64,000 bases of DNA from Gemmatimonadota bacterium. GTDB lineage: Bacteria > Gemmatimonadota > Gemmatimonadetes > Gemmatimonadales > GWC2-71-9. Made by a program: the position numbers and the translations under genes. The stretch is from positions 132,404 to 196,403 of the forward strand of contig JADJOM010000002.1 in NCBI GenBank assembly GCA_016713785.1, read 5' to 3'. Shown in pieces: positions 25,071 through 39,931 of this stretch (positions within the stretch are counted from its first letter, which is position 1; the number at the start of each line of letters is the position of its first letter). The notes under the pieces are model-generated. The model was not told where the DNA came from. It worked only from the letters and a program-made list of their open reading frames with translations, and did not search any database.

Positions 25071-25167
25071 GCAGGGGCTCCAGGGACGGGGCGGGGAGTG
25101 ACGGCGGACGTGGCAGGGGAAGATGCAGCGGAAACGGGCCCGGGGCGAGGGCCTGGGCCCCCCACCC

Positions 25168-26485
25168 GGGAGTGTCAGTTTCTCTGTGTATGAGCCTGGT
25201 TCACTGCCATGCCGGGACCCGGTCCCCGAAGAGGAGCCGGATGTGCCGCAGCGCCTCCACCCAGTGCTGCGGCGTGCCGAGCTTCGCCTGCGCGTTCCGC
25301 AGCGCCAGGTACAGCAGTTTGCTCGCCGCCTCCGCGGAGGGGAAGTGCCCCCGCACCTTGAGGCTCTTCCGCAGCGTCCGGTGCAGGCTCTCGATCGCGT
25401 TGGTCGAGTAGAGCAGCCGCCGGACCGGCACCGGGTACGCCAGCGCCGGGGCCAGCCGCTCCCAGTGCCGCTGCCACAGCGCCGTGATCTCCGAATGTGC
25501 CTGGCCCAAGGGACTCGCGGCCCAGGCGGCGAGGGCCTGCTGCGCGGCCGCCTCGCCTGGCGCCTGGTAGATCCCCGCAGGGCGCTCGCCACCGCCTTCC
25601 GCTCCCGCCAGTTCACCTGCGCCAGGCTCTGCCGCACCAGGTGCACCACGCACTGGTGCACCACCGTCTGGGGAAAGACCGCGTGGATGGCGTCCGGAAA
25701 GCCGGGCAGCCCATCCACCAGCGCGATCAGGATGTCCTGCACCCCGCGCCCCTGCAGGTCGCTCAGCACCCGCTGCCAGAAGGCCGCCCCCTCCGCCGCC
25801 GCGAGCCAGAAACCCAGCACCTCCTTCTCGCCGCTCGGCCGGATGCCCAGCGCCAGGTAGATCACCTGCTGCTGCACCAGCCCCTCGGTCCGGATCTTCA
25901 CGCGGAGCCCGTCGAGCACGACGGCGATGTACACCGGCTCCAGCGGCCGCTGCTGCCACGCCGCCGCCTCGGCCAGCACCGCGTCGGTCACCGCCGTGAT
26001 CACCGCCGGCGACACCTCCACCTGGTAGCACTCCTCCAGGTGCGCCTGCAGCTCCCGCACCGTCAGGCCCCGGGCGTAGAGCGACAGGACCTTCTGGTCG
26101 AAGCCCGGCAGCCGGCGCACCCCTTGGGCACGAAGGCCGGGGTGAAGCTCCCCTCCCGGTCCCGCGGGATCGCCAGCGGCAGCGCCCCCTCGTCGGTCAG
26201 CACCGTCTTGGGCGTGGTCCCGTTCCGGGCATTGCCGTCGGGCCCGCGGCCGGCCCCCGGGGCGTACCCCAGGTGCTCGGTCAGCTCCGCCTGCAGCACC
26301 CGCTCGACCATCCGCTGTTTCAGCCGCCGGAACACCGCCTCGAGCTGCTCCGGCGTCTGCACCTGGGCCAGCAGGGTCTCCAGGGCCGCCGCCTCCTGCG
26401 GGTCCGCGGCCGGGCGCTTCTTCCGTGCCATATCCCCTCCTCCCTCCCTAGGATATGGCTCATACACAAACTTTCAAACACTCCC
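25168..26485 (-). mobile_element. IS256-family insertion sequence
   Basis: Imperfect terminal inverted repeats: gggagtgtcagtttctctgtgtatgagcc on the left and ggctcatacacaaactttcaaacactccc on the right. Flanking direct repeat is CCCCACCC (8 bp), or CCACCC depending on where the ends are drawn. Confidence 0.85.
25201..26431 (-). pseudogene. IS256-family transposase, two -1 frameshifts
   Basis: MARKKRP...ELTEHLGY...RDREGSFTPAFVPKG | RRLPGFDQKVLSLYARG...VDGLPGFPDAI...ASALRG | IYQAP...YSTNAIESLH. Breaks lie at plus-strand C4 26120-26123 and C4 25573-25576. Confidence 0.85.
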
Positions 26486-26959
26486 CCACCCGGCCTGCCG
26501 GCGGCCTCCCGCCGCCGTTTCCCGGCACGCGGACGCGTATCACGGACCGCGGGCTCCGCTCCACTGCATGACGCAGGCGTTCAACGCACCCCCGTCTCCT
26601 TCCACGGGCCCTCCGGCGACATTTCCTGTCCGCTTTTATCGCACAACCCGGCACCTGGTACCCATCACGCACTTCCGCGGAAATTTTTTTGCATTGCGCG
26701 TGGCATACATTCACCGCACGGTTCCCTTCACGGGCCTCCCCGTGACCTTCACCGCACCGCGAAGGAGCAAAACACCGACGCTCGTGACATTCACTGGCCG
26801 GAGAATTCGTCCAACTCATCGCCTGTCCGCATTCACGCCCTGCAGCAGACGTTTTATGCACGACACCTTCCATTTATTCATTGCGAAAGCCCTCCCACGC
26901 CCTGCAGCCGCCATCCCTCGTACTTCTCACTGCCCACCTCCCCCTTCTGTTCACTCTCC

Positions 26960-27137
26960 TCCCTCTTCTCTCTTCCCTCTTCCCGCTTCCCTCGTCCCTC
27001 TTCCTTCTTCCCTCTTCCCTCTTCCCTCTTCCCTCTTCCCTCTTCCCTCTTCCCTCTTCCCTCTTCCCTCTTCCCTCTTCCCTCTTCCCTCTTCCCTCTT
27101 CCCTCTTCCCTCTTCCCTCTTCCCTCTTCCCTCTTCC
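26960..27137 (+). repeat. 7-bp polypyrimidine microsatellite (CTCTTCC)n, about 18 perfect plus about 7 degenerate copies
   Basis: Read directly. The plus strand is only C/T for about 180 nt. The array ends about 130 bp upstream of the peroxidase start codon. Confidence 0.95.
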
Positions 27138-27265
27138 CGCCCCCCACCCGGCCGTGCGCCCAAGGTTCCTTCACGATCTTCTCCCCGTCTCCTTCACCGC
27201 CCGCCGGTACGTTCGGTGGACAATCCCGACAATCCGTCCGGCGCCATCCCATGAAGGAGATCGCC

Positions 27266-28300: not shown

Positions 28301-28392
28301 GCGGCTCGGCGGTCGGAGCACGGCTGATGGCGTGGCGGCCCGGGCCCACGTGCCCCCGCCGCGGCCTGCCAGTCATCAGCTTTGGCATGCCG

Positions 28393-28516
28393 CTCTGGGG
28401 GCACGTGGTCCCAGCCCTGGCACTGACGGCGGCGCTGCACTTGCCGCCGACCCTCTCTGGGGGCACGCGGTCCCGGGCCCGGCAGGGACGGCGGCGCTGC
28501 ATTGACCGCCGACCCT
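28393..28516 (+). repeat. two tandem copies of a 62-bp unit (about 85% identical)
   Basis: ctctgggggcacg(t/c)ggtccc...gacggcggcgctgca...ccgccgaccct starts at both 28393 and 28455. A partial inverted copy lies at 28342-28356. Confidence 0.8.
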
Positions 28517-28616
28517 CGGGTAGCCCCGTCGCCGCGTGCCAAAGCCGACGACTGGCACGCGCCAGAGGGGGTACCCGGGGGGAGGCCCCGGTCCCGCAGC
28601 GGCACGGCGGGACAGC

Positions 28617-28651
28617 GAACGGGGCGGGCCACTGGGTGGCCCGCCCCGTTC
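28617..28651. terminator. bidirectional terminator-like hairpin
   Basis: gaacggggcgggcca-ctggg-tggcccgccccgttc gives a 15-bp perfect stem and 5-nt loop. It lies between the convergent peroxidase and barrel-protein genes. Confidence 0.65.
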
Positions 28652-28676
28652 TGTCCTGCCGTCCAGCGCCTGGCGC

Positions 28677-29360: not shown

Positions 29361-30005
29361 CGGCGTCCGCCGGGGGGGGGGGCGGGAAGGCGATTCGGCG
29401 GTTCGTGATTCGTGGGGTGCGTGGGTCGCTCCCTAGGCACCTGCTCTGCCGCGGGCCAGTCGGCGGCGTTGGCACGAAGCGATGGGGGCATCCGGGGGGT
29501 CGGTCCCTGTGTATCACGGCGAGGGCTCCGACCTCCGCCCGAACCGGCGGCCTGTCGGCGTCTCCTGATAGTCCTACTTCGGGAGGTCCGCCACCGCTTG
29601 CCGGTCTGCGCTTCCTAGTGGTCCTACTTCGGGGAGGTCCGCCCTCAACCCTGATCCTCCGATCCTGAGCGGCCCTGAAACGGGGGAAGGGTCACGGTAG
29701 CCGCGAGGTGAGCCAGCGCCAACGCACAGAGGCCACCTGCCAGCCGCATGGAGTGGCCTGACATCCTTCCGGAAGCGGCCTGACATCTAGGGCACCTTGC
29801 CAACTACGGGCCTCGGGCCGCCTATCTGCGGATCCTGTAGCTCACCGGCCGTTGCCCTGCCGCATACGCATACGCATACGCATTCCATGGCAGCCGCCAT
29901 AGTGCGCGCATGCCGCAAGGGCGAGCGCCGTGGACGCCATGGTGCGGCCGGCCTCGACACCGCGACCGCGCGGGCATGGCCACTCCTGCGAGCTGGCATG
30001 CCGAG

Positions 30006-30407
30006 CTAGTAGTGCTCTACTCCATCCTGCCGGACGATCGCTCTCGTAGCTGGATCAAAGTAGAGCTGATACCGGAACATGCCACGGGAATCATAGATGT
30101 TGAGGTAGACCACATCCGTTTCCCTTAGCGCCTGCCCATCGAGGAAGAACAGCGTGAAGAGGTGCCGGGCTAGAGGCTCATCGATCTCATCTTCCCCCAC
30201 GCTGCGTGCGGACAGATACAGCTGATCATCGATGGCCACCTCGACACGCGATCCCCACTGCGCGCGGATTGCATCGAGGCGCATCTCATCTCCTGGTGCA
30301 GCACTGCTGCAGCCCGCCAGGACCAGCAACAAGTGGGCGCCACCCAGCCAGCTCCGCCCACGACTCACCCACTGGCTCCGCCTCATCCTCCGGTCTCCTC
30401 GTGACAA
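30006..30407 (-). CDS. lipoprotein, candidate immunity protein for orphan toxin 2
   Basis: The gene starts 30 nt downstream of the toxin stop. Lipobox LLLVLAGCSS. Lower GC than the background. Confidence 0.6.
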   Translation of the reverse strand: MSRGDRRMRRSQWVSRGRSWLGGAHLLLVLAGCSSAAPGDEMRLDAIRAQWGSRVEVAIDDQLYLSARSVGEDEIDEPLARHLFTLFFLDGQALRETDVVYLNIYDSRGMFRYQLYFDPATRAIVRQDGVEHY

Positions 30408-30437
30408 CGCAAGTGTGCGTGGTGCGACACCACGATC

Positions 30438-31433
30438 CTACCTGCATGACCTTCCTGTGATGGCCGCAGCGATCCCCCGTGCGTTGTTGAACACATCCCT
30501 GGCACTGAACGCCCAGGCAGTCTTCCCGGTGAGGCGGCTGCCCAAGTTCGGCAGGTCATGCCTCACTAAACCTTCCAGTTCATTCAGCAGCCCGAACTGC
30601 CACGCGAGGAATGGCCCGAACTGTCGGGTCGCCTCGTACGAGCCATGGAAATGCCTCTCGGACGACAGTGCCTCTCCCCGAAAGAGGTGGTGCATCACTG
30701 GCCTCATGCTATGAAACCACTCGTAGGTGTCAACGGGGTTGAACACAGCTACTACTAAAGGGGTGGGCGCAAGAGGTTCGGCGGGGCACCCAGTGTGCGA
30801 CCGACTCTTTGTCGGAGAACCTCCAGCGGGGCTCCTACGCCGACTCCGTGTCGTGTCCCCTGGCGCGAGTGGGTTCCAGTATGGTTGCTCGGGAGCGGAG
30901 AACGTTCCCTCTTTGTCTTCTTCCGATCGACAAGTCCAATTCTCGTCGTAGCCCTCCAGATGGACGTCGGTGCAACGAGGCTCCAGCCCGGAGGGGTCGG
31001 TCAGGTTCACCGGATCATTCCCTGCATACGCGTACACATTCAGGCCGCCCGCGATCCCGATCGGGTCCTCGCTGATCCACCGCCCCAGGGCGGGGTCGTA
31101 GTAGCGCGCCCGCATGTAGTAGAGCCCGCTCTCGCCGTCATACTCCCGCCCGGCAAAGTGATAGCGGACCACGATGCCGGTATCGGCCACGGCGTCGCCC
31201 CAGGGCGCCTCGGCAAATTCCTTGACCTTGGCCCCGGTGCGGAACCGGGCCAGGCCGCGCACGGTGCCGTTGATCGGGTCGAGGATCGCCGCAAGGGTGT
31301 CGACGACCGGGGTCGTGGCCCGGAGGGCCAGGAGCCGGTCCACCCCGCCGGGGTACCAGTTGAATTGGTGGTGGTGCAAGCCAAGGTCAAGGCCGCTGCG
31401 GAGTACTCGACTGTGCCCAGCAGGGGTGGTCAA
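30438..31433 (-). CDS. orphan RHS core-end plus C-terminal toxin cassette 2 (has its own ATG)
   Basis: YPGGVDRLLALR...YAYAGNDPVNLTDPSGLEP repeats the RHS core end. A unique ~190-aa tail follows, with ERHFHGSYEATRQFG...DVFNNARG. Confidence 0.8.
   Translation of the reverse strand: MTTPAGHSRVLRSGLDLGLHHHQFNWYPGGVDRLLALRATTPVVDTLAAILDPINGTVRGLARFRTGAKVKEFAEAPWGDAVADTGIVVRYHFAGREYDGESGLYYMRARYYDPALGRWISEDPIGIAGGLNVYAYAGNDPVNLTDPSGLEPRCTDVHLEGYDENWTCRSEEDKEGTFSAPEQPYWNPLAPGDTTRSRRRSPAGGSPTKSRSHTGCPAEPLAPTPLVVAVFNPVDTYEWFHSMRPVMHHLFRGEALSSERHFHGSYEATRQFGPFLAWQFGLLNELEGLVRHDLPNLGSRLTGKTAWAFSARDVFNNARGIAAAITGRSCR
31010..31358 (-). repeat. ~350-bp direct repeat, copy 3 (RHS core end)
   Basis: Near-identical at nucleotide level to 32978-33320 and 34542-34888. 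Confidence 0.9.
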
Positions 31434-31436
31434 CAG

Positions 31437-31667
31437 CTAGCGGACGTCCGGGGGCGCAGACTTGACCGACTCCGGCTCCCCGCGCGATCGATGCTCGAAC
31501 CACATGGCCAAGCCGAAGCACGCCAGAAAGTAGATGACCATTCCCACCGCGGCTCGAGTCCAGGCCAACCGCTGCCAGCCAGCGATCATTCCCAGCGCCC
31601 CGGAGAGCAGGCCTACGAGCAGTGCGGGCCACCTTGCTCTGACCGTCGCAGCGATCAGTGTTCTCAC
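31437..31667 (-). CDS. small two-helix membrane protein (possible stray immunity gene)
   Basis: GTG start, 76 aa with two hydrophobic helices. Acceptable GC3 bias. Weak RBS. Confidence 0.4.
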   Translation of the reverse strand: MRTLIAATVRARWPALLVGLLSGALGMIAGWQRLAWTRAAVGMVIYFLACFGLAMWFEHRSRGEPESVKSAPPDVR

Positions 31668-31794
31668 TGCGAGGGTCCTTCAGGGCGCGAGTGCGTGTCG
31701 CTGAGATTGGTGGAATGCCGCCACCAGGTTGGAAAACAGGCAACCCGTCTACGACAGCCCTGGCCGACCTGAACCCGTGAGGCGCAGTGATGCC

Positions 31795-32397
31795 CTATTC
31801 CAGGATGACCACCAAGGTGGCCACGGCGAACTCCGATGGGTCGCTTGGCCGCCGCCCACTGATGCTTATCCCGGTTGGGAGTACATAGTTCAGGAGCCAT
31901 TCATGCAGTGCGGGTACAGGCACCACGCGGGCCCATTCTCTGGCGTTGAGGAGTACGGCCTGCTCAGAATGTTCCCGCGCGGGTTCAGCAATGAGGGCCC
32001 CGATCGTTGAGCCTGGGCCGAGGAGGGCCCTCGCCTCCCCAAGGTGGCGAGCGATGGCACCTTGCTCTGTAAGTGACTCACACTCTAGGGTTAGAAGAAG
32101 TGCGTGACCTGTTGCAGTGCAACGCACTGGCTTAGCGGCACTCACGAGGGCATGCAGTGCTGCGCCGAAGCCAGGTGCTACGCTGTTGTTGACCCGAATC
32201 TCTGCCGCCTGCGTGTCAATGGAGCTACCTGCCGCAAGTGCGGCCGCTACCAAAGCCACCTCAGCGGCAAGTTCGCGATGACTGTTCTGGTCCGCTCCGG
32301 GCGAGAATGGCATGCTAGGCGTCCCGGCAGGAATGAGCGCGATCCAGAAAAGGAAGTTGGAAATCTGGAGCATGGGCGCTGTGGCGTTTCTGGACAT
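31795..32397 (-). CDS. candidate immunity protein for orphan toxin 1
   Basis: ATG 32397 lies 8 nt after the toxin stop (32406). 200 aa, mainly helical, with no signal peptide. GC falls to roughly 50-65% by eye. Confidence 0.55.
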   Translation of the reverse strand: MSRNATAPMLQISNFLFWIALIPAGTPSMPFSPGADQNSHRELAAEVALVAAALAAGSSIDTQAAEIRVNNSVAPGFGAALHALVSAAKPVRCTATGHALLLTLECESLTEQGAIARHLGEARALLGPGSTIGALIAEPAREHSEQAVLLNAREWARVVPVPALHEWLLNYVLPTGISISGRRPSDPSEFAVATLVVILE

Positions 32398-32405
32398 TCT
32401 GGCCC

Positions 32406-33330
32406 TCAGGGTGTAGGGGCGTATCCCTCGAAGACGGCATGCCCACTTGCACAATGGACAAAAGCCTGTGCCCTGAGGCTCATGAGCAGCGCCTGAGGAC
32501 CGACCGGACCAAAGTACGTTCCTCGATATACCCCAACCCCGCCGAGCACCTTCACTCGAAGAGGACCGATCTTGAAATAGTCGTTGATCGCAACCCGCTG
32601 GACCGAGAACACCCCCCGCTGGGAAGGCGGGGGGACATCGATCACTGCCACATACTCGATGCTTCCAACCGCACATCCCTTCCAGGCATTCTTCCGCCCG
32701 GTCGCAATAACGATCGGTGGTGCGCCGCCCGCGCCCGTGCTGCGATATGGGTTCCACGGTGGATTGTCCTTCCACGCATCCGGGATTTCCCCGCCACATC
32801 GCAGTCGGTACCAAGGATCTGTGGACAGGATCCAACCGCTGTCGCAAGCCCCCTTGTTCTGGCCGGTATCCCCGAACACCTCAAGAGTGTCCATGGGCAA
32901 CGGGCAGCCACCCGGTGTGCCCGGAGGCTTTCTCAGGTCGCACCGTGGATCCAGTCCTGAAGGGTCCCTCCCATTGACCGGATCATTCCCCGCATACGCG
33001 TACACATTGAGCCCGCCCGCGATCCCGATCGGGTCCTCGCTGATCCACCGCCCCAGGGCGGGTTCGTAGTACCGCGCCCGCATGTAGTAGAGCCCGCTCT
33101 CGCTGTCGTACTCCCGCCCGGCGAAGTGATACCGGACCACGAGGCCGGTATCGGCCACCGCGTCGCCCCAGGGCGCCTCGGCAAATTCCTTGACCTTGGC
33201 CCCGGTGCGGAACCGGGCCAGGCCGCGCACGGTGCCGTTGATCGGGTCGAGGATCGCCGCCAGGGTGTCGACGACCGGGGTGGTGGCCCGGAGGGCCAGG
33301 AGCCGGTCCACGCCGCCGGGATGACGGGCG
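32406..33330 (-). CDS. orphan RHS core-end plus C-terminal toxin cassette 1 (no credible own start)
   Basis: HPGGVDRLLALR...NDPVNGRDPSGLDP followed by a unique ~190-aa tail. The track ORF extension up to 33743 runs antisense-frame through the immunity gene and is not credible. Confidence 0.75.
32978..33320 (-). repeat. ~350-bp direct repeat, copy 2 (RHS core end)
   Basis: See copies at 31010 and 34542. Confidence 0.9.
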
Positions 33331-33445
33331 CATTCGGGGCGGCGCAGGCCAAGCTCAAGGCCGCTGCGGGATGTTCGTGCGGCTGGGGGAATGGTCCTGA
33401 GGCGGGCGGCGCTGCCTGCGACGGCTCCTATCAGCGGCTTGCTAG

Positions 33446-33916
33446 TCACGGTTCCGGGCGATACTGCTCCAGAAACTCCCGCGACAGGCGCTGGTACGCT
33501 GGGTAGAGCGCCAACGCCATAAAGGATCCCGTGACGATGGCACAGAACGCTGCCGCGAGCAACTGGGCCTTCACGGGCTCTTCCGGATACAACAACACGC
33601 TCAAGACCACGGCAAGCGGGCTGGCAATGGCGACGCCTACCGGCACAAGGCGGCGGCGCGATAATGTGTGCGGATCCAGGAAGCCGACCACCGCCCCGGT
33701 GAATCCCGAGAAGGCGTAGTACAGCAGCATCGCCGCCCACCATGTGAGCCCGAGGCGCCGGAGATTCTCGCCTCCCGTGAACACGGCGAGTGCGGCGACG
33801 TAGACGACGACGATGCTGGCATACCGGAGGCTCTTCCCCACGAAGAACCGCACTCGGGGCCGAGTCAGGTCCTTCGCTGCCTCCCGAGCTAGTTCAACAG
33901 GGGTTTGATGATGCAT
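33446..33916 (-). CDS. four-helix membrane protein, candidate immunity for the main RHS toxin
   Basis: ATG 33916 overlaps the RHS 3' end by 28 nt. 156 aa with four hydrophobic helices. Confidence 0.65.
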   Translation of the reverse strand: MHHQTPVELAREAAKDLTRPRVRFFVGKSLRYASIVVVYVAALAVFTGGENLRRLGLTWWAAMLLYYAFSGFTGAVVGFLDPHTLSRRRLVPVGVAIASPLAVVLSVLLYPEEPVKAQLLAAAFCAIVTGSFMALALYPAYQRLSREFLEQYRPEP

Positions 33917-36900
33917 TCCATCCCCGTCTGCAAGGACGATACAGCGGTCCCTCCCCAGGGAACCCAACTTGCCGCCGCCCCTCCAACCGCCCAGAGGAAA
34001 TCGCTTGTCGACTGATCGGCCGACAACGCAGCTGTTGCCGCCCCACGTGCCCTCCAAATCCCAGCTCGGAGTGCGCGCTCCGCCGCAGCCGCCCTGCCCG
34101 CTCGCGCCCCTGCAAATGTCGACTTGCCGAACAGCCTCCAGTCGGCATGTGCCATTGCCCCGGCGAACTCGGTCTGGCTGCGTGCCCAGCTACCCAGCAC
34201 CTTTGCACGTTCGAGCCACCTGGCCTGGGTGAAGTCCAATGTGCCATTGATGACCAAGTTTGAGAATGCCGCGGCGCATCTCTGCCCCTGTGTCGGCTCG
34301 CCAGGACCCTCGCTTTCCTCCCCACCACCCGGGAGGTTCCGCCAGCGGTCGGGAATCTGGCCGCCAGAGCGCAGACGGACCCACTCGTCGGTGGACGAGG
34401 TCCAGCCGCTGTTGCATGGCTCCCCATTCGTGCCGTACCACGTCGGTATCCACTCCGGCTCATCATGCCTCTCCAGCGGTGGCAGGCACACCACGCCTGG
34501 ATCGCAGTCCGGATCCAGCCCAGAAGGATCCCGCCCATTGACCGGATCATTCCCCGCGTACGCGTAGACGTTCAGCCCGCCCGCGATCCCGATCGGGTCC
34601 TCGCTGATCCACCGCCCCAGGGCGGGGTCGTAGTACCGCGCCCGCATGTAGTAGAGCCCGGTCTCGCTGTCGTACTCCCGCCCCGCGAAGCGGTACCGCA
34701 CCACGATCCCCGTGTCGGCAACCGCGTCGCCCCAGGGCGCCTCGGTGAATTCCTTGACCTTGGCCCCGGTGCGGAACCGGGCCAGGCCGCGCACGGTGCC
34801 GTTGATCGGGTCGAGGATCGCCGCCAGGGTGTCGACTACCGGGGTGGTGGCCCGGAGGGCCAGGAGCCGGTCCACGCCCCCCGGATACCAAGCGTATTCC
34901 CGCAGCACGGTCCCCGCGGCGTTGAGGTCGAAGATGACCTGGTCGCCCTCGTATACGTAGTACTCGTCCGCGGCGGCCATCTGCTTCCGCACCCGGCGCC
35001 CGAGGGCATCATAGAACATGCTGTCCACGAGGGCGCCTGTCGAGCCGTTCCGGATGCCCCGGAGCCGGCCAAGAGCATCCCAGGAGTACTTGTACCCGGA
35101 GCCCGTCCCGCCCGGGCAGGCTCCCACCAGCCGGCAGACGATGCTCCCGATCGCATCGTAGGAGAGGTTGGTGGTGCCGAACGCGGCCAGCCGGTTCCCC
35201 GCCCCGTAGGTCGTCGTGGTACCAAGCTGGCCGCGGTTGCCGGTCGAATCGTAGGTCCAGGCGGAGTCGGTCGTGCCATTGATCACGTTCTGGCACTGGC
35301 TCCCGGTGGAGTCGCAGGCGTTGGTAAGCCGGCCCAGCCGGTCATAGCGGAATAGCCGCCGGGTGAAGGCGCCCCCCTTGGGCGACGTGCGGGTCTTGTT
35401 GCGCCCCACGGAGTCGTAGGTCATGATCGGCAATTCGAGCGCGGCAAGGTTGGTCCCGCCGGTGAAGGTCTGGCTGGTGATTCGGTGGTTGGCATCGAAC
35501 CCCTGGAGCAGGCGCCAGGCATTGGCGGTGCCGCGATTGAACACCAGCGTGTCCGCGACCCAGTCGGCCGTGGTCTTGAACGTCAGGCAGCGCTTGGGAT
35601 TGGCGAAGACGCAGAGGGAATCCCGGAGGCCGTTGCCCGTGGTGTACGCGAACTGGAGCAGGGAAGAGTCGGCCGCAGGGGTACTCGGTCGAAGAACGCG
35701 CCTCGTGACCCGGTCATAGGTGTCGTAGCTCAGGCTGCCGCTGTAAGTGCGGCCGTTCATGGTCTGTCGCCATGCGTCGAGGCGCCCCCGGGTATCGAGG
35801 TGGAAGCTGTCGCGGGCTACGCTGTTGTAGGCCACGTTCCACCGGCCCGCGAGGGTGTCGTACAGGAAGTAGTCGGTCGGGAAGCCCGGTCCCGCGCGCG
35901 ACAGCAGCCGACCAACCTTGTCGTAGCTGAGGTCGATCACGTCACCCCGGCGGGTCCGGAACTTCCGAAGGTTGCCGCCAAGGTCGTACTTGAGGGTGTC
36001 GGCCTTGGTGGTGTCCGTGGCATCGTAGCGGGCCACGAGGGCCCCGAGGGCGTTGTAGCCGAACTTGTAGACCACCGGCGCCGCCGCCCCGCCCGGCCGG
36101 GGTGTCTCCACCCGGATCAGCGCCAGGGTCGCCGGATCGTAGGTATTGGTGACCCGATACCCCGGCGCCGCCCAGGTTGTGGTCAGGACCTGGTTCATGA
36201 CGCCGTAGGCGGTGCGCGACGTCGCCGCGAGTGGCGTGATCGAACTGTCGGGCCGTCCAACCGAGTCGAGCGTGACGCGGGTTTCGATGCCTGAGGGATC
36301 CCTGACCTTGACCAGGTTGCCCCAGGAGGCGTGATAGGTGTAGCGGGTCTTGTGATTGAGGGGATCGACGACGGCGGTGTCCCGGCCGAGCGGGTCGGCG
36401 ATGTGCCGCTCCACGAGCTGCCCGGTGGTGGTGTCCGGCCACGCCCCGGTCACGCCCACGTAGATGTCCTTGAGCGCCCCCTTCGGCCCACCCGCCTGTC
36501 CGGTGCCGTAGTAGTGGAAGTCGGTCCGCACCCGGTCGCCCTCGATCCAGGTGAGGTCGCTGGTCAGGGTATCGAGGTAGTGATAGTAGGTGTTCCGGCC
36601 GCCCGGACCGTCGCCGGCATAGGTCAGCTGCCCATGCCCGTTGTAGGTGAACACGGCGTAGGCCCCATTGGCCTCATCGACCCGGGTGACCCGGCCGTCA
36701 CCATCCCGGGTGATCAGGGAGCGGACCCCGAACGGATCGACCACGACCGTCGGAGTGCCGTACGCGTCCTGGCTGTAGCGGACGATGGCACCCAGCGGGT
36801 CGGTCACCGATGACTTGAGCGAGGTGTCCGCCTTCACCCCGGCCTTGGGTGCGTTCAGCGCATTGCCCGGCGTCGTAGGCTGCCAGACCGTGCGCTCGGC

Positions 36901-38469
36901 GGGCTGAAAGGTCACCCGGGGCCGGCCGGTCGAGCCATCGAACAGGGTGACGCTCGGCGCTCGAAGGCTGTCCAGGCGATTGAGGCCGTCGTAGTACAAC
37001 TCACTCACGTTGCCCCCGCGATCGGTCACGCTTGCGAGCAGGCTATTGGCCCCGTACGCCAGGCTTTCCCCGTAACCATCCGGATCCTGGATCTGGGTGA
37101 TCTTGCCGCCGACGGTGGTGTACGTCACGGTCCGGAGGGCACTCGAGCCGTACTGGACTTCCACGTGATGGAGTTTGCCTGCCGTGGCGGAGCAACTCGC
37201 ATTGTAGCACAGCCGCAGCACGCGGCTGGTGGGGTCGGTGATGGTGCTCAGCAGCGAGTCGTAGGGCGCCGCCAGGTAGGCGAAGAGCGTCGCGTTGCCG
37301 AAGCGATCCGACGCCCTGGTCATGAATCCGTTGGCGTTGAACTCCACCGACGATCCGTCGAGGTAGGTGCGGGTGTACTTGCCCGACTGGTACGCCAGCC
37401 GCACGCCCGGCGCACCGGCGGGCCGGGCGTAACCCGCGGCCACGCTGTCGTAGAACGCGATCGAGCCGTCACCCTCGGTGATCACGACGTCACCCGTGGC
37501 ACTCCCCCGCTTGTAGAGCCGTTGATACCCCGCCAGGTCGAAGCCGGCCCCGAACGCGCTTCGGCTCTGGGCAGCGATGAGCACCTGGGTAGATACCGTA
37601 TCTCCCAGGGTCACATTGCCGGGATAGTACGCCATGATCGACAGTTCCAGGGGGAAAGCCCCGGTCGAGTCGAGACTGTTCGTCGCGGCGTCGAATGCAG
37701 CGGCGATGCGGGTCTGGCCCGAGGCATGGGCCGCGAAGTACGCGATGGTGGCGCCGTTGAGCAGCGTGAACCAGCTTCCCACCCCGCTGCGCCGGACCTG
37801 GATCGAATAGGCGGTGGGAAGGGTGGCGCCAGCGGACAGGGTCAGGTCAATCGGAATGACGGGCGTGGGCTTGTGCGTCTGGCTGTTGTAGGCCAGGGTC
37901 AGCGCCCGCGGGGCACCGAGGGAGAAGTACGCGGGGGTGGCGTGCGCGTACACGGCATCGAAGCAGCTCGCCACGCACTTCGCCACATCGCGGTAAGTCG
38001 CGTTGTGCGGCGTCAGCGCGATGACCGGAGGCGCCGGGCCCGTCGAGAGCACCGTGTACCATCCGTCGTCGCTGGCCGTCCCGGTGGCGCTCAGGGTCAG
38101 GGTGCCGCTGCCCACCGCGCCGGTGCTGTAGGTGGCCGTGACGGTGATCTCCTCGAGATCATCGAAGGAGTAGGAGGGAATGCTCAGGCCGGTGCAGGTC
38201 AAGGGCCCGGTCGTTGCGCAGGAAAAGGTGACTGCCCTGGAGCCCGGAGCGGTGTTGGCCACGGTAAAGGCAAGCGTCTGGCCGCTGCTCCCCGAGGGGG
38301 CAGAGGCGCTGCCGTTGTCCGGCGTCACCACGATGGCTCCGCCACCACCGCCCCCGCCCGCGAGCGGCGCCTCGATCTGGGCGCGGAGTGGGGCGGCGCT
38401 GGCGCCGACGAGGACCAGGGCGGCCGCGAGGGTCCAACAGGAGAACGCGACGTTCGCGGGACGATGCAC
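33889..38469 (-). CDS. RHS/YD-repeat polymorphic toxin with Sec signal peptide
   Basis: Many YD repeats. RHS core end is ...YAYAGNDPVNGRDPSGLDP, followed by a ~200-aa unique tail. Preferred start GTG 38469 has GGAG 8 nt upstream and gives MHRPANVAFSCWTLAAALVLVGASAAPLRAQ. The longest ORF starts at GTG 38556. Confidence 0.9.
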   Translation of the reverse strand: MHRPANVAFSCWTLAAALVLVGASAAPLRAQIEAPLAGGGGGGGAIVVTPDNGSASAPSGSSGQTLAFTVANTAPGSRAVTFSCATTGPLTCTGLSIPSYSFDDLEEITVTATYSTGAVGSGTLTLSATGTASDDGWYTVLSTGPAPPVIALTPHNATYRDVAKCVASCFDAVYAHATPAYFSLGAPRALTLAYNSQTHKPTPVIPIDLTLSAGATLPTAYSIQVRRSGVGSWFTLLNGATIAYFAAHASGQTRIAAAFDAATNSLDSTGAFPLELSIMAYYPGNVTLGDTVSTQVLIAAQSRSAFGAGFDLAGYQRLYKRGSATGDVVITEGDGSIAFYDSVAAGYARPAGAPGVRLAYQSGKYTRTYLDGSSVEFNANGFMTRASDRFGNATLFAYLAAPYDSLLSTITDPTSRVLRLCYNASCSATAGKLHHVEVQYGSSALRTVTYTTVGGKITQIQDPDGYGESLAYGANSLLASVTDRGGNVSELYYDGLNRLDSLRAPSVTLFDGSTGRPRVTFQPAERTVWQPTTPGNALNAPKAGVKADTSLKSSVTDPLGAIVRYSQDAYGTPTVVVDPFGVRSLITRDGDGRVTRVDEANGAYAVFTYNGHGQLTYAGDGPGGRNTYYHYLDTLTSDLTWIEGDRVRTDFHYYGTGQAGGPKGALKDIYVGVTGAWPDTTTGQLVERHIADPLGRDTAVVDPLNHKTRYTYHASWGNLVKVRDPSGIETRVTLDSVGRPDSSITPLAATSRTAYGVMNQVLTTTWAAPGYRVTNTYDPATLALIRVETPRPGGAAAPVVYKFGYNALGALVARYDATDTTKADTLKYDLGGNLRKFRTRRGDVIDLSYDKVGRLLSRAGPGFPTDYFLYDTLAGRWNVAYNSVARDSFHLDTRGRLDAWRQTMNGRTYSGSLSYDTYDRVTRRVLRPSTPAADSSLLQFAYTTGNGLRDSLCVFANPKRCLTFKTTADWVADTLVFNRGTANAWRLLQGFDANHRITSQTFTGGTNLAALELPIMTYDSVGRNKTRTSPKGGAFTRRLFRYDRLGRLTNACDSTGSQCQNVINGTTDSAWTYDSTGNRGQLGTTTTYGAGNRLAAFGTTNLSYDAIGSIVCRLVGACPGGTGSGYKYSWDALGRLRGIRNGSTGALVDSMFYDALGRRVRKQMAAADEYYVYEGDQVIFDLNAAGTVLREYAWYPGGVDRLLALRATTPVVDTLAAILDPINGTVRGLARFRTGAKVKEFTEAPWGDAVADTGIVVRYRFAGREYDSETGLYYMRARYYDPALGRWISEDPIGIAGGLNVYAYAGNDPVNGRDPSGLDPDCDPGVVCLPPLERHDEPEWIPTWYGTNGEPCNSGWTSSTDEWVRLRSGGQIPDRWRNLPGGGEESEGPGEPTQGQRCAAAFSNLVINGTLDFTQARWLERAKVLGSWARSQTEFAGAMAHADWRLFGKSTFAGARAGRAAAAERALRAGIWRARGAATAALSADQSTSDFLWAVGGAAASWVPWGGTAVSSLQTGMECIIKPLLN
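34542..34888 (-). repeat. ~350-bp direct repeat, copy 1 (inside the main RHS gene)
   Basis: See copies at 31010 and 32978. Confidence 0.9.
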
Positions 38470-38505
38470 CGGGAAGCTCCGGAGTGGGGATGCCTCCCTG
38501 ACAAG

Positions 38506-38520
38506 ACAAGCAACGTGCCA
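38506..38520 (-). promoter_or_regulatory. sigma-54 -24/-12-like element upstream of the RHS gene
   Basis: Minus strand reads TGGCACgttgcTTGTc, with GG-N10-GT (consensus TGGCAC-N5-TTGC). A second candidate cGGCGGcgcgaTTGCc lies at 38574-38559. Confidence 0.4.
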
Positions 38521-38575
38521 CCGTCGTGCGGCCCCAAGTCGTTTCCGTGGCGGCACTTGGCAATCGCGCCGCCGG

Positions 38576-38630
38576 TTTGTCGCAGCGACAGCGGCCCGCC
38601 GTGCGACAAACGGTGCGACACCGTGCGACT
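38576..38630. promoter_or_regulatory. cluster of TGTCGCA/TGCGACA heptamers (enhancer-like sites)
   Basis: TTTGTCGCA-N17-TGCGACAAA inverted pair. Palindrome TGTCGC-A-GCGACA. Three direct GTGCGAC(A/T) copies at 38601, 38613 and 38623. Confidence 0.35.
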
Positions 38631-39645
38631 AGTTCAGTCCTGTACCACCCGCGGGGCTCACCGGCGGCTGGATGCCCAGGCGCTTGAGGCGGCGGTACAA
38701 TGTGGCCCGGTGCACCCCGAGCAGCACCGCGACCCGGTCCACGTTCCAATCCTGCTCCTCGCAACAGGCCACCAGTTCCGCCCGCTGGTACTGCAGCCCG
38801 GGATCCTCGGGGCAACGCATGCGGTCCTGGCGGGCCCCCTCATCCGCCATATCGAGCGCTTCGCACAACGTGGCCGGCGTGAGGGGGCCCACCGGCTGCA
38901 GGGTGGCGGCCCGGGCCACCACATGGCGAAGCTCCCGGACATTCCCGGGCCAGGGGTAGCGCTCGAGCACGGTCCGGGTGCCAGGCTCCAGCACGGCGCC
39001 AAGCCGGCGCGCAAAGTGCTCGGCCAGCGGCCACACATCCTCGGGCCGCTCCCGTAGCGCCTGCAGCCGGATCACCACCCCGCCCAGCCGGTGCACGAGG
39101 TCAGCCCGGATGGGCAGGCCACCGGAGGCGCCCTCCAGGTCCTGGACCGCGGCGAGCAGCCGCACCGACACCCGGTGCACGGCGGTCTCCCCGACGCGCG
39201 AGAACTGGCCGGTCTCCGCCACGCGCAGCAGGGCCCGCTGGCCGGCGATCGGCAGGCTGGCGAGTTCGTCGAGAAACAGGGTCCCGCGATCGGCGGCCTC
39301 GAAGTACCCAGGGACGGTGTCGACCGCGCTCGTGAAGGCGCCGCGCCGATGGCCGAACAGCTCGCGGATCACCATGTCGGCCGGCAGCGCCCCACAATTG
39401 ACCTCGACCATCCGCCCGTCCCGGGCACTCCAGGCGTGAATCGCCTGCGCCAGCACCTCCTTGCCGGTGCCGGTGGGACCGACGAGCAGAATCGGGAGGC
39501 TGGTGCCCGCGAAGGCCCGTGCCCGCTCCACCGCCCGGCGCATGGAGGGCGACACGGCGATGATAGGTGAGTCCTCGGGAACGGAAGGGCGGAGGGCCGG
39601 CGCCCTGCCTTCCGTCGGTCCCCCGGGCTTTCCGACGACGGTCAT
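38629..39645 (-). CDS. sigma-54-dependent transcriptional activator (AAA+ plus Fis-type HTH) without a sensory domain
   Basis: Walker A GPTGTGKE, GAFTSA loop, Walker [17 protein letters not shown] and a C-terminal HTH. Only about 35 aa precede the AAA+ core. ATG 39645. Confidence 0.85.
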   Translation of the reverse strand: MTVVGKPGGPTEGRAPALRPSVPEDSPIIAVSPSMRRAVERARAFAGTSLPILLVGPTGTGKEVLAQAIHAWSARDGRMVEVNCGALPADMVIRELFGHRRGAFTSAVDTVPGYFEAADRGTLFLDELASLPIAGQRALLRVAETGQFSRVGETAVHRVSVRLLAAVQDLEGASGGLPIRADLVHRLGGVVIRLQALRERPEDVWPLAEHFARRLGAVLEPGTRTVLERYPWPGNVRELRHVVARAATLQPVGPLTPATLCEALDMADEGARQDRMRCPEDPGLQYQRAELVACCEEQDWNVDRVAVLLGVHRATLYRRLKRLGIQPPVSPAGGTGLN

Positions 39646-39931
39646 GGCGCGCCTACCGCCGGCAGAGTGAGCGCCATCAGGCGGCTTGCTCCTGCGTTCC
39701 CGGAGTCGAGGAGGGATGGACGGGGGCGTGCGGCGGGGCGGAACGACGGATGGGCGGACGGCGGGAGGGGCGGGCAAAGAGACATCAGGAGGACGGACCA
39801 CCAACGCAGGCAGAGGCGCACCGGGGCTCCGGATTCGGGATGCCCATTCCTTATGTCAGGAGATGTGCCGCGCGCGTCAAACCACGGAGTTGTTGTGGCG
39901 GAATGACTTGGGCGCCGACCCGGGCCGGGGC

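What the first reader, a model, noticed from the sequence alone, without database searches (positions are those of the whole stretch)
30006..38556. RHS polymorphic-toxin array: one full-length gene plus two orphan toxin/immunity cassettes joined by ~350-bp direct repeats
The last ~115 codons of the RHS core (GGVDRLLALR ... YAYAGNDPVN.(R/T)DPSGL(D/E)P) occur three times in the same orientation. The copies lie at 34542-34888, 32978-33320 and 31010-31358 and are near-identical at nucleotide level. Each copy is followed by a different ~190-200-aa tail and a different small downstream gene. This is the known orphan-module layout of Rhs loci. Homologous recombination between the repeats would delete about 1.56 or 3.53 kb and fuse a new toxin tip onto the expressed gene. 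All three tips and all immunity candidates look unlike families I can name. GC drops visibly in the tips and immunity genes.
Basis: partly seen in the sequence, partly recalled or inferred. Interest (0 to 1): 0.65.

Follow-up and report, generated by a model that had tools for sequence, protein, structure and literature searches.

The report
Rhs toxin gene with spare tips
A Gemmatimonadota bacterium carries one full-length Rhs toxin gene followed by two spare toxin-tip/immunity cassettes, and related public assemblies contain the rearranged versions expected from recombination between the shared 380-bp repeats; this is a clear but textbook kind of locus.

Summary
A minus-strand rhs gene (33889-38471, 1526 aa) has a Sec-type signal peptide, YD repeats and an Rhs core ending in DPSGL. 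It is followed by two orphan fragments that repeat its last 380 nt at 90-94% identity. Each copy carries a different ~180-206-aa tail and its own downstream gene.

The interpretation as an Rhs main-plus-orphan array is supported. Four other MAG assemblies are colinear with the window here (99.3-99.8%). Other haplotypes carry an extra ~3-kb cassette X. The window's first orphan repeat is a chimera of the two repeats that flank X. One MAG contig (L165) is the predicted 3.53-kb deletion that fuses the main core to the CT3 tip. Its crossover lies inside a 77-nt identical run. Mosaic gene-conversion tracts are also present.

The tails have no Pfam, NCBIfam or PDB relatives and almost no homologues among billions of proteins. 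A CT2-type domain and an imm2-type gene do occur together on a full-length Rhs in a related organism. All three immunity candidates look membrane-bound or exported.

The window holds no PAAR or T6SS genes. A sigma-54 activator gene and a conserved -24/-12-like promoter lie directly upstream. Verdict: a new member of a known kind, of moderate interest.

The parts
38629..39804 (-). Sigma-54 enhancer-binding protein gene directly upstream of rhs. The coordinates are the longest ORF. Relatives annotate 308 aa, about 38629-39555, which is an AAA+ domain plus HTH with no N-terminal sensory domain.
   Evidence: Pfam Sigma54_activat E=8e-47, AAA_lid_14 and HTH_8. The same gene sits upstream of orthologous rhs genes in L004, L009, L011 and L167-L169.
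38578..38628 (-). Candidate activator-binding sites: three (T)GTCGCAC motifs and the palindrome TGTCGCTGCGACA.
   Evidence: Read directly from the sequence. Orthologous loci carry their own repeated or palindromic motifs at the same place. The function is inferred.
38506..38520 (-). Sigma-54-type -24/-12-like promoter element TGGCACGTTGCTTGT.
   Evidence: It is not significant alone (4 matches in the window against 4.2 expected). The same element, a GGAG ribosome-binding site and the start codon are conserved upstream of rhs in L011 and L086.
33889..38471 (-). Full-length rhs gene ('main'), 1526 aa from GTG 38469-38471. The longest ORF starts at 38556.
   Evidence: RHS_repeat E=3e-18, TIGR01643 and TIGR03696. 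PDB Rhs cores match at E down to 1e-23. The 1526-aa annotation in L167-L169 and start-region conservation support the shorter start.
38379..38471 (-). Sec-type signal peptide (M)HRPANVAFSCWTLAAALVLVGASAAPLRAQ.
   Evidence: Hydrophobic segment found. Orthologues in L011 and L086 also begin with signal-peptide-like sequences. No PAAR domain was found.
34511..34890 (-). Repeat copy 1: the end of the Rhs core, including RARYYDPALGRW...DPSGL (DPSGL at 34516-34530).
33892..34509 (-). CT1, the 206-aa tail of the expressed gene. It has an N-terminal Cys pair, a 35-aa module shared with CT2, and a helical Ala/Gly-rich C-terminal part.
   Evidence: No Pfam, NCBIfam or PDB hit. Among 5.8e9 and 1.84e9 proteins the only real match is the same locus. 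The shared module is shown.
33446..33916 (-). imm1, the immunity candidate for CT1. It is an integral membrane protein of 156 aa from ATG 33916, or 135 aa from GTG 33853.
   Evidence: Third-position GC supports the reading frame. The hydropathy scan flagged three hydrophobic regions; four candidate TM segments by eye. It is 100% conserved in L003, L005 and L008.
32406..33410 (-). Orphan 1. It comprises a diverged core remnant (33327-33410), repeat copy 2 (32947-33326), the CT2 tail (32409-32945, 179 aa) and the stop codon.
   Evidence: The repeat is a chimera of the cassette-X copy (5' part) and the CT2 copy (3' part) of other haplotypes. The CT2 C-terminal domain is 39% identical (E=8e-16) to the tail of a full-length Rhs in L011.
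31795..32397 (-). imm2, the immunity candidate for CT2 (200 aa). Its ATG lies 8 nt after the CT2 stop and it has a hydrophobic N-terminus.
   Evidence: Start position. It is 27% identical over 157 aa (E=1e-9) to the gene directly downstream of the CT2-like tail in L011, which has a signal-peptide-like N-terminus. An IS interrupts it in L003.
31437..31667 (-). Small ORF of 76 aa with two hydrophobic segments, between imm2 and orphan 2. It may be a stray immunity gene.
   Evidence: Third-position GC is high in this frame. Translation; the hydropathy scan flagged one segment, the second was judged by eye. It is conserved in L001, L003 and L006. No homologue was found, so its function is unknown.
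30438..31401 (-). Orphan 2. It comprises a diverged core remnant (31359-31401), repeat copy 3 (30979-31358), the CT3 tail (30441-30977, 179 aa) and the stop codon.
   Evidence: CT3 has no family hit. CT3 is found fused to the main core in L165 and L166.
30006..30386 (-). imm3, the immunity candidate for CT3 (126 aa). It has a lipoprotein-type signal with the lipobox LAGC.
   Evidence: Translation. The ATG has a GAGGAG ribosome-binding site upstream. It follows CT3 in L001, L005, L012 and L165.

Best explanation
This is an Rhs polymorphic-toxin locus of a Gemmatimonadota (probably Gemmatimonadaceae) bacterium.

**Expressed gene.** One gene is expressed and encodes a Sec-exported Rhs shell protein. 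Its C-terminal tip, CT1, begins just after the DPSGL self-cleavage motif and is the toxin. The membrane protein imm1, encoded just downstream, protects the producer.

**Silent cassettes.** Two silent cassettes follow: CT2 with imm2, and CT3 with imm3. Each is headed by a 380-nt copy of the end of the rhs core but lacks the shell, the signal peptide and a convincing start codon.

**Switching.** RecA-type homologous recombination between the repeats reshuffles the array.
- A crossover between the main copy and an orphan copy deletes the DNA in between and puts a new tip on the expressed gene.
- Crossovers between orphan copies remove or add cassettes.
- Short conversion tracts homogenise the repeats.

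**Other inferences.** Transcription of the main gene is probably driven by a sigma-54 promoter under the adjacent activator. The toxins probably act on the cell envelope, because all three immunity candidates are membrane-bound or exported.

**Shown versus inferred.** The anatomy, the family membership of the core and the rearranged forms in other assemblies are shown. Toxicity, immunity, the export route, regulation and the cellular targets are inferred.
For: **Core family.** RHS_repeat, TIGR01643 and TIGR03696 hit the main gene. TIGR03696 hits both orphans. PDB Rhs cores match at E about 1e-23.

**Repeats.** Three copies at 90-94% identity with identical runs of 77-101 nt.

**Arrangement is real.** The array is colinear at 99.3-99.8% in L005, L167, L168 and L169.

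**Recombination products.**
- The window's orphan-1 repeat matches the cassette-X copy over its 5' flank and first ~100 nt. It matches the CT2 copy at its 3' end. Cassette X (~3 kb) is present in L002, L003 and L006 and absent here.
- L165 is identical to the main copy at positions 1-382 and to orphan 2 from position 306 on. It is followed by imm3, the OMP gene and CCP_MauG.
- The main copy in L002 and L003 carries a central tract of ~120 nt identical to the CT3 orphan copy.

**Orphan tips are usable.** A CT2-type domain sits on a full-length Rhs in L011 with an imm2-type gene next to it.

**Envelope location.** imm1 has hydrophobic TM-like segments, imm3 has the lipobox LAGC, and imm2 and its L011 homologue have hydrophobic N-termini. 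Every tail in this clade starts with a Cys pair just after DPxGL.

**Regulation.** The sigma-54 activator gene is adjacent. A -24/-12-like element is conserved in orthologous loci.

Against: - No toxicity or immunity data exist for any tail or downstream gene.
- No fold or enzymatic family could be assigned. AlphaFold2 models had pLDDT 40-43.
- L165 and L166 are short metagenome contigs. A chimeric join through the shared tract cannot be excluded, especially for L166. It starts with an Illumina adapter, and its background has a shared run of ~240 nt.
- The exact fusion pattern was not found in the JGI metagenome collection or the species-representative genomes.
- An IS interrupts imm2 in one haplotype. 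That cassette may therefore be dispensable there.
- The sigma-54 match has one mismatch and is not significant on its own.
- The route by which a Sec-exported Rhs would reach a target cell in a two-membrane bacterium is unknown.
Confidence: 0.85

Rival explanations
1. The orphan cassettes are decaying leftovers of past tip replacements. Only the immunity genes matter, as protection against neighbours' toxins. The toxin fragments are never re-used.
For: - The orphans lack the shell, an export signal and a convincing start codon.
- Related haplotypes contain obvious relics, such as a CT1-like 62-aa remnant without a repeat inside cassette X.
- Gene callers often skip imm2.
Against: - The CT2 and CT3 reading frames are intact and 100% identical across independent assemblies.
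- CT3 is found joined to the main core in L165.
- A CT2-type domain heads a full-length Rhs in L011.
- The IS in imm2 in L003 argues against strong selection on that immunity gene.
- Differences between the repeat copies are mostly synonymous.
Confidence: 0.1
2. The repeats, or the variant arrangements, are assembly artefacts. They could be duplicated or collapsed repeats, or chimeric joins through the shared tract.
For: - The related sequences are all metagenome-assembled.
- Shared identical tracts of 77-240 nt could mislead short-read assemblers.
- L166 begins with an adapter sequence.
- The contigs of GCA_016702955.1 carry many frameshifts.
Against: - The three copies differ at 6-10% of sites and have unrelated tails.
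- The three-copy array recurs in four other MAGs on contigs of 36-368 kb.
- Cassette X occurs in three separate assemblies.
- The L165 crossover lies in a run of only 77 nt.
Confidence: 0.03
3. The orphan fragments are translated on their own from internal starts. They would then act inside the producer as toxin-antitoxin-like modules, as reported for the Salmonella rhs orphan (PMC7043789), rather than serving as spare tips.
For: - Gene callers place TTG or ATG starts just upstream of the repeats, for example in P0002, P0020 and P0022.
- The three orphan copies share a ~45-90-nt upstream segment that is not shared with the main gene.
Against: - No good ribosome-binding site or promoter was found there. 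The only promoter-like hit in the array lies inside CT3.
- The immunity candidates look exported or membrane-bound, which does not fit a cytoplasmic toxin-antitoxin pair.
- The tails carry conserved Cys pairs, which suggests an oxidising compartment.
Confidence: 0.05

Closest known systems
Enterobacterial rhs loci with orphan rhs-CT/rhsI modules (Salmonella Typhimurium LT2 STM0291/STM0292; Jackson 2009 PMC2935791; Poole 2011 PMC3150448; Koskiniemi 2014 PMC3967940)
   Same: - A full-length rhs gene is followed by 5'-truncated fragments that keep the end of the core.
- Each fragment carries a different tail after DPxGL and its own small downstream gene.
- Homologous recombination between the main gene and an orphan yields a fusion that arms the cell with the orphan tip.
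- Orphan tips are also found on full-length genes in relatives.
   Different: - The phylum is Gemmatimonadota, not Enterobacteria.
- The repeat is shorter and more diverged: 380 nt at 90-94%, against 522 bp at 95%.
- The protein has a Sec signal peptide and no PAAR, VgrG or other T6SS context in the window.
- The toxin and immunity families are unrelated to any named family.
- The evidence for recombination here comes from natural haplotypes in metagenomes, not from experiments.
Sec-dependent RHS polymorphic toxins such as Bacillus subtilis WapA (class 'T2SS/Sec-dependent, signal peptide, RHS repeats' in Zhang et al. 2012, PMC3482391)
   Same: - An N-terminal signal peptide, then RHS repeats, then a variable C-terminal toxin with an adjacent immunity gene.
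- No dedicated secretion genes lie nearby.
   Different: - WapA belongs to a single-membrane bacterium and is wall-associated. How a Sec-exported Rhs crosses or sits in an outer membrane here is unknown.
- The WapA comparison rests on my own knowledge and was not tested here.
T6SS-associated Rhs effectors with solved cores (PDB 8qjc, 8h8a, 7q97, Tse15 8uy4, Tse5 8cp6)
   Same: - The last ~250 residues of the shell and the core-end motif align at E from 1e-23 to 1e-15.
- By homology the protein should form the same encapsulating shell and self-cleave at DPxGL.
   Different: - There is no PAAR or VgrG-binding N-terminus, no chaperone gene and no T6SS gene within 64 kb.
- The N-terminus is a signal peptide followed by an unassigned Gly-rich stretch.
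Effector/immunity arrays built by sequential displacement (Vibrio cholerae T6SS aux clusters, PMC5361080; T7SS immunity paralogue arrays, PMC9484751)
   Same: Old effector and immunity genes pile up downstream of the active gene, and homologous recombination between tandem related segments reshapes the array.
   Different: Here the recombining segment is the conserved end of the delivery gene itself, so a silent tip can be re-armed.

Membership tests
Rhs/YD-repeat polymorphic toxin | YD/RHS repeats that form the shell | tested here: met
   Pfam PF05593 at E=2.9e-18 with three stretches, and TIGR01643 at E=3.5e-15. PDB Rhs cores match at E down to 1.4e-23.
Rhs/YD-repeat polymorphic toxin | RHS-associated core domain ending in the PxxxxDPxGL demarcation motif | tested here: met
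   TIGR03696 at E about 1e-28 in the main gene and in both orphans. The sequence reads ...NDPVN(G/L)(R/T)DPSGL.
Rhs/YD-repeat polymorphic toxin | A variable C-terminal domain after DPxGL that is toxic | not testable with these tools
   Variability is shown: three unrelated C-terminal domains here, plus tails X and Y, an Ntox44 tail (L009, E=1.8e-11) and others at orthologous loci. Toxicity needs an experiment.
Rhs/YD-repeat polymorphic toxin | A cognate immunity gene immediately downstream | tested here: inconclusive
   A distinct ORF follows each tail. It starts 8 nt (imm2) or 51 nt (imm3) after the tail's stop codon; imm1 overlaps the stop by 28 nt or starts 36 nt after it, depending on the start codon. 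An imm2-type gene co-occurs with a CT2-type tail in L011. Protection was not tested.
Orphan rhs-CT/rhsI module | A 5'-truncated fragment that shares the end of the core with the main gene and lacks the shell, export signal and start signals | tested here: met
   Homology to the main gene begins at 33326 and 31358. Upstream there are only ~45-90 nt of diverged core-like sequence, then stop codons or other genes.
Orphan rhs-CT/rhsI module | Can be joined to the main gene by homologous recombination | tested here: met
   The L165 main::CT3 fusion has its crossover in the 77-nt identical run at 34824-34748. This is comparative evidence from an assembly, not an experiment.
T6SS-delivered Rhs effector | An N-terminal PAAR or VgrG-interacting domain, and/or neighbouring vgrG, chaperone or T6SS genes | tested here: not met
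   No PAAR hit at E<=0.1. Neighbours are a sigma-54 activator, a nucleoside symporter, a histidine kinase, an OMP, CCP_MauG and metabolic genes. A T6SS elsewhere in the genome was not examined.
ABC (Tc) toxin TcC subunit | A partner TcB/TcA (SpvB, beta-propeller) encoded alongside or fused | tested here: not met
   Only the core-end ~60-70 residues match TccC3 and YenC2. No TcB- or TcA-like gene is in the window.
Sec-dependent RHS polymorphic toxin (Zhang et al. 2012 class) | An N-terminal signal peptide followed by RHS repeats and a C-terminal toxin | tested here: met
   A hydrophobic h-region follows a basic n-region and ends in PLRAQ. Orthologues also start with signal-peptide-like sequences. 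Export itself was not tested.

The most novel reading that the evidence does not exclude
This may be a T6SS-independent Rhs weapon in a two-membrane phylum, the Gemmatimonadota.
- A Sec-exported shell would be switched on by a dedicated sigma-54 activator.
- It would deliver envelope-acting toxins of at least three folds with no known relatives. Each would be paired with an exported or membrane immunity protein.
- Tips would be swapped in natural wastewater-type populations by recombination at a 380-nt repeat.
- The tails would be built from two parts that shuffle independently: an N-terminal Cys-loop or linker module and a C-terminal toxin.
Probability: 0.35. Interest if true: 0.6.

Novelty: new member of a known kind. 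Interest (0 to 1): 0.4.

Why it matters
- **Natural haplotype series.** Tip switching at rhs loci has been shown experimentally mainly in Salmonella. Here public assemblies of closely related Gemmatimonadota MAGs hold several states of one locus. These are a four-copy array, a three-copy array with a chimeric junction, a main::CT3 fusion, conversion tracts and an IS insertion. The process could therefore be followed in the field with long reads.
- **New toxin and immunity candidates.** The locus offers three or four toxin/immunity pairs with essentially no relatives among billions of proteins. All are predicted to act on the envelope.
- **Unusual context.** It is also a case of an Rhs protein with a Sec signal and a dedicated sigma-54 activator in a poorly studied phylum.
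- **Limits.** None of this overturns current understanding. It extends a known mechanism to a new lineage.

Tried and rejected
- **Family searches on tails and immunity candidates.** Pfam at E<=10 and NCBIfam at E<=1 gave nothing meaningful. The only hits were weak, sub-threshold transporter-like matches to the hydrophobic proteins.
- **Sequence search of the three tails against PDB.** Only chance hits at E>0.3.
- **Homologue searches of CT1, CT2 and CT3 among 5.8e9 proteins.** Only copies of the same locus were found.
- **Full HMMER search of CT1 against 1.84e9 representatives.** Only the same locus, plus a spurious tandem-repeat protein, P0006.
- **AlphaFold2 single-sequence models.** CT1 and the CT3 C-terminal domain gave pLDDT 40 and 43. 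These are unusable, so no fold search was run.
- **Two-sequence CT2-domain profile against PDB and Pfam.** No hit.
- **Exact pattern for a main-flank + CT2/CT3 junction.** No match in JGI metagenome contigs or in the species-representative genomes. The fusion was found later through the protein cluster of CT3.
- **tRNA and Rfam scans of the window.** Nothing found.
- **Sigma-70 promoter and terminator scan of the array.** No more sites than in shuffled sequence.
- **All-against-all BLASTP of small membrane ORFs.** The ORFs of the window and of cassette X are unrelated. The only match was the CT1-like remnant.
- **A JAB/DUF4329-like reading of tail Y.** This rested on an HSHP...SPRD motif. Pfam gave no hit, so it was dropped.

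Full report
**1. What is in the sequence**

On the minus strand a long ORF (33889-38556, 1555 aa from the first GTG) hits Pfam RHS_repeat (E=2.9e-18). It also hits NCBIfam TIGR01643 and the RHS-associated core domain TIGR03696 (E=1e-28). Its last ~250 shell residues align to solved Rhs cores, with PDB 8qjc at E=1.4e-23.

The last ~125 codons of the core (GGVDRLLALR...RARYYDPALGRWISEDPIG...NDPVNGRDPSGL) recur twice downstream in the same orientation.
- The nucleotide repeat lies at 34511-34890, 32947-33326 and 30979-31358.
- Start-to-start spacing is 1564 and 1968 nt.
- Identity over the 366-nt coding core is 93.7% (main/orphan 1), 93.7% (orphan 1/orphan 2) and 89.9% (main/orphan 2).
- Perfectly identical runs reach 89, 101 and 77 nt.
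- Most differing codons are synonymous.
- Both downstream copies hit TIGR03696 at E about 1e-28.

Two corrections apply. The repeat ends about 30 nt further 3' than stated, and '90-94% identical' is more accurate than 'near-identical'.

**2. Anatomy of the cassettes**

After DPSGL each copy continues into a different tail.
- CT1 is 206 aa (33892-34509).
- CT2 is 179 aa (32409-32945).
- CT3 is 179 aa (30441-30977).

Third-codon-position GC falls from about 0.93 in the repeats to 0.6-0.8 in the tails and the following genes. Overall GC falls to 0.58-0.65.

A distinct small gene follows each tail.
- imm1 (33446-33916 or -33853) has hydrophobic transmembrane-like segments; the scan flagged three regions.
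- imm2 (31795-32397) has its ATG 8 nt after the CT2 stop and a hydrophobic N-terminus.
- imm3 (30006-30386) has a lipoprotein-type signal...LLLVLAGCSS.
- A further 76-aa ORF with two hydrophobic segments lies at 31437-31667.

The orphans have no shell, no signal peptide and no convincing start. Upstream of the shared repeat they keep only ~45-90 nt of a more diverged core-like sequence. This sequence (...SGLDLGLHHHQFNWYPGGVD) is similar among the orphan copies but not to the main gene.

CT1 and CT2 share a 35-aa module near their N-termini, C.SGW..STD.W.RLR.GG.IPD.W (57% identity, E=2e-11). Every tail in this clade begins with a Cys pair just after DPxGL.

**3. Is it an assembly artefact?**

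No.
- The copies differ at 6-10% of sites and have unrelated tails.
- Look-ups of the encoded proteins returned the same locus in several public assemblies.
- Contigs from GCA_016702955.1 (contig 14, L005), GCA_016716895.1 (L167), GCA_016706765.1 (L168) and GCA_016704795.1 (L169) are colinear with the window across the whole array. Identity is 99.3-99.8%.
- The records name these MAGs Gemmatimonadetes/Gemmatimonadota bacteria.
- The closest species-representative genomes are Gemmatimonadaceae and Gemmatimonadales MAGs, at 84% and 70% amino-acid identity in the repeat.

**4. Evidence that the repeats recombine**

(a) Loss of a cassette.
- Contigs 3 and 13 of GCA_016702955.1 (L003/L004 and L002) and the JGI contig L006 carry four repeat copies.
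- Between imm1 and the CT2 cassette they hold an extra ~3-kb cassette X. It contains a different tail, several small membrane ORFs and a 62-aa CT1-like remnant.
- A table of 130 informative sites was built. In it the orphan-1 repeat of the window and of L005 equals the X copy in its 5' flank and first ~100 nt. It equals the CT2 copy at its 3' end.
- The switch falls within a tract of ~200 nt where the two copies are identical.
- This is the footprint of an unequal crossover that removed cassette X.

(b) The predicted tip swap.
- The protein cluster of CT3 contains MBP9201683.1 (P0016). Its N-terminal part is the main-gene core (...YVYEGDQVIFDLNAAGTVLREYAWYPGGVD...) and its tail is CT3.
- Its contig (L165, GCA_018058145.1) is identical to the window's main copy at positions 1-382 apart from one SNP. 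It is identical to the orphan-2 copy from position 306 onward apart from one SNP.
- The crossover therefore lies in the 77-nt identical run at main coordinates 34824-34748.
- The contig continues through imm3, the OMP gene and CCP_MauG. This is the predicted 3.53-kb deletion.
- A second short contig (L166) joins the L003-type main 5' end to CT3. It is weaker evidence, because it starts with an adapter and that background has a shared run of ~240 nt.

(c) Gene conversion. The main copy in L002 and L003 carries a central tract of ~120 nt that matches the CT3 orphan copy at about 20 informative sites, where the window's main copy differs.

(d) Other variation.
- L006 starts with a core fragment 89% identical to the main gene. 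It extends at least 238 nt beyond the orphan boundary and carries yet another tail, Y. Tail Y shares its N-terminal module with X.
- L003 has an IS (rve) inserted in imm2.
- The tails and immunity genes themselves are 100% identical between the window and L001, L005, L006 and L012. The variation is concentrated in the repeats.

Caveat: all of this comes from metagenome assemblies. Read-level confirmation is needed, particularly for L165 and L166. An exact-pattern scan for the fusion found nothing in the JGI metagenome set or the species-representative genomes.

**5. What the tips and immunity genes are**

- None of the tails or immunity candidates matches Pfam, NCBIfam or PDB sequences.
- Searches of 5.8e9 proteins found only copies of this locus.
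- A full HMMER pass of CT1 over 1.84e9 representatives found only the same locus and a spurious repeat protein.
- Single-sequence AlphaFold2 models were unusable, at pLDDT 40 and 43.
- One informative relative exists. A full-length Rhs next to a sigma-54 activator gene in a more distant organism (L011, 73% identity in the repeat) ends in a domain 39% identical to the CT2 C-terminal domain (E=8e-16). Conserved motifs are WKGC, GG.G.Y.G.Y.GPVG and HCASG.
- The gene immediately downstream of that tail is 27% identical to imm2 over 157 aa (E=1e-9) and starts with a signal-peptide-like sequence.
- CT2/imm2 is therefore a genuine, mobile toxin/immunity-type pair that can sit on an expressed Rhs.
- The orthologous Rhs in L009 carries the known Ntox44 domain (E=1.8e-11).

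All three immunity candidates look membrane-bound or exported, and the tails carry conserved Cys pairs. I therefore infer, with moderate confidence, that these toxins act in the periplasm or on the membrane. CT1 is helical and Ala/Gly-rich and is paired with a membrane protein, which suggests membrane disruption. These functional assignments are not demonstrated.

**6. Export and regulation**

- The main protein has no PAAR domain, and no T6SS, Tc-toxin or two-partner secretion genes lie in the 64-kb window.
- The N-terminus is a Sec-type signal peptide. This places the protein in the 'Sec-dependent signal peptide + RHS' class of Zhang et al. 2012 (PMC3482391, Table 1).
- Directly upstream on the same strand is a sigma-54 enhancer-binding protein gene (Sigma54_activat E=8e-47). 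Relatives annotate it as 308 aa, which leaves no N-terminal sensory domain.
- The ~160-nt gap between the activator stop codon and the GTG start at 38469 contains three (T)GTCGCAC motifs, the palindrome TGTCGCTGCGACA and the -24/-12-like element TGGCACGTTGCTTGT at 38520-38506.
- That element is not significant alone, with 4 matches in the window against 4.2 expected.
- A similar GGCAC-N5-(T/A)TGT element is conserved upstream of the orthologous rhs genes in L011 and L086, and more weakly in L087 and L009. In L011 and L086 it is followed by a GGAG ribosome-binding site 8 nt before the start codon and by a signal peptide.
- This conservation also fixes the start at GTG 38469-38471. The resulting 1526 aa matches the annotation in L167-L169.
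- A text search found no paper linking a stand-alone Rhs toxin to a dedicated sigma-54 activator.

**7. Comparison with known systems and verdict**

- The architecture and switching mechanism match the enterobacterial rhs main/orphan paradigm. That paradigm includes C-terminal displacement (PMC2935791), functional orphan pairs (PMC3150448) and recombination over 522 bp at 95% identity that arms Salmonella with the orphan tip (PMC3967940).
- Membership in the Rhs family and in the orphan-module category is met on every sequence-testable criterion.
- Membership in the T6SS-Rhs and Tc-toxin subclasses is not met.
- The locus is therefore a new member of a known kind.
- Its value lies in four things: the natural series of rearranged haplotypes, the phylum, the Sec and sigma-54 context, and three or four toxin/immunity families with no relatives.
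- A specialist would find it tidy rather than surprising. I score interest at 0.4.

Noticed in passing
window 38506-38628 (minus strand), with the activator gene at 38629-39804: A sigma-54 activator gene with no sensory domain sits directly upstream of rhs. The gap holds three (T)GTCGCAC motifs, a palindrome and a -24/-12-like TGGCACGTTGCTTGT. A similar promoter element, ribosome-binding site and start are conserved in orthologous loci L011 and L086.
   Followed up: partly
L003 3003-6056, L002 2592-5640, L006 1727-5232: An extra cassette X is present in other haplotypes and absent from the window. It holds a Gly-rich tail, several small membrane ORFs and a 62-aa remnant 77% identical to the CT1 C-terminus without a repeat. 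An ORF with an ACP-like sequence motif follows.
   Followed up: partly
L003 7244-9280, corresponding to window ~32082-32086: An insertion of ~2 kb carrying an rve-type transposase interrupts imm2 in one haplotype of GCA_016702955.1.
   Followed up: partly
window 31437-31667 (minus strand): A 76-aa ORF with two hydrophobic segments and high third-position GC lies between imm2 and orphan 2. It is conserved in related assemblies, no homologue was found, and gene callers do not call it.
   Followed up: partly
window 28390-28513 and 28604-28662: A 62-nt unit occurs twice in tandem (84% identity), with a further copy in inverted orientation nearby. They lie in the gap between CCP_MauG and the OMP beta-barrel gene.
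   Followed up: no
window 29543-29633: Two 41-nt direct repeats (76% identity, 50-nt spacing) lie in the ~790-nt non-coding stretch between imm3 and the OMP gene.
   Followed up: no
window 24756-27100: A Mutator-family transposase gene (24756-26120) lies here, and the content around it varies between haplotypes. L165 ends in a 100-nt inverted match to 25168-25267. L167-L169 break colinearity at about 26800-27230.
   Followed up: no
tails in the window and in L006, L007, L009, L011, L086, L087: All tails of this Rhs clade begin with a Cys 2-4 residues after DPxGL and a second Cys 6-28 residues later. The tails look two-part: N-terminal modules are shared between CT1/CT2, X/Y and L007/L009 while the C-terminal domains differ.
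   Followed up: partly
L166 1-36: The ENA contig k119_316398 begins with an Illumina TruSeq adapter sequence, so its 5' end is not genomic.
   Followed up: yes
L002, L003, L004 (GCA_016702955.1): This MAG holds three contigs (3, 13 and 14) with the same flanking genes but different array states. Contigs 3 and 13 carry many frameshifts. This suggests strain haplotypes binned together and uncorrected long-read errors.
   Followed up: partly
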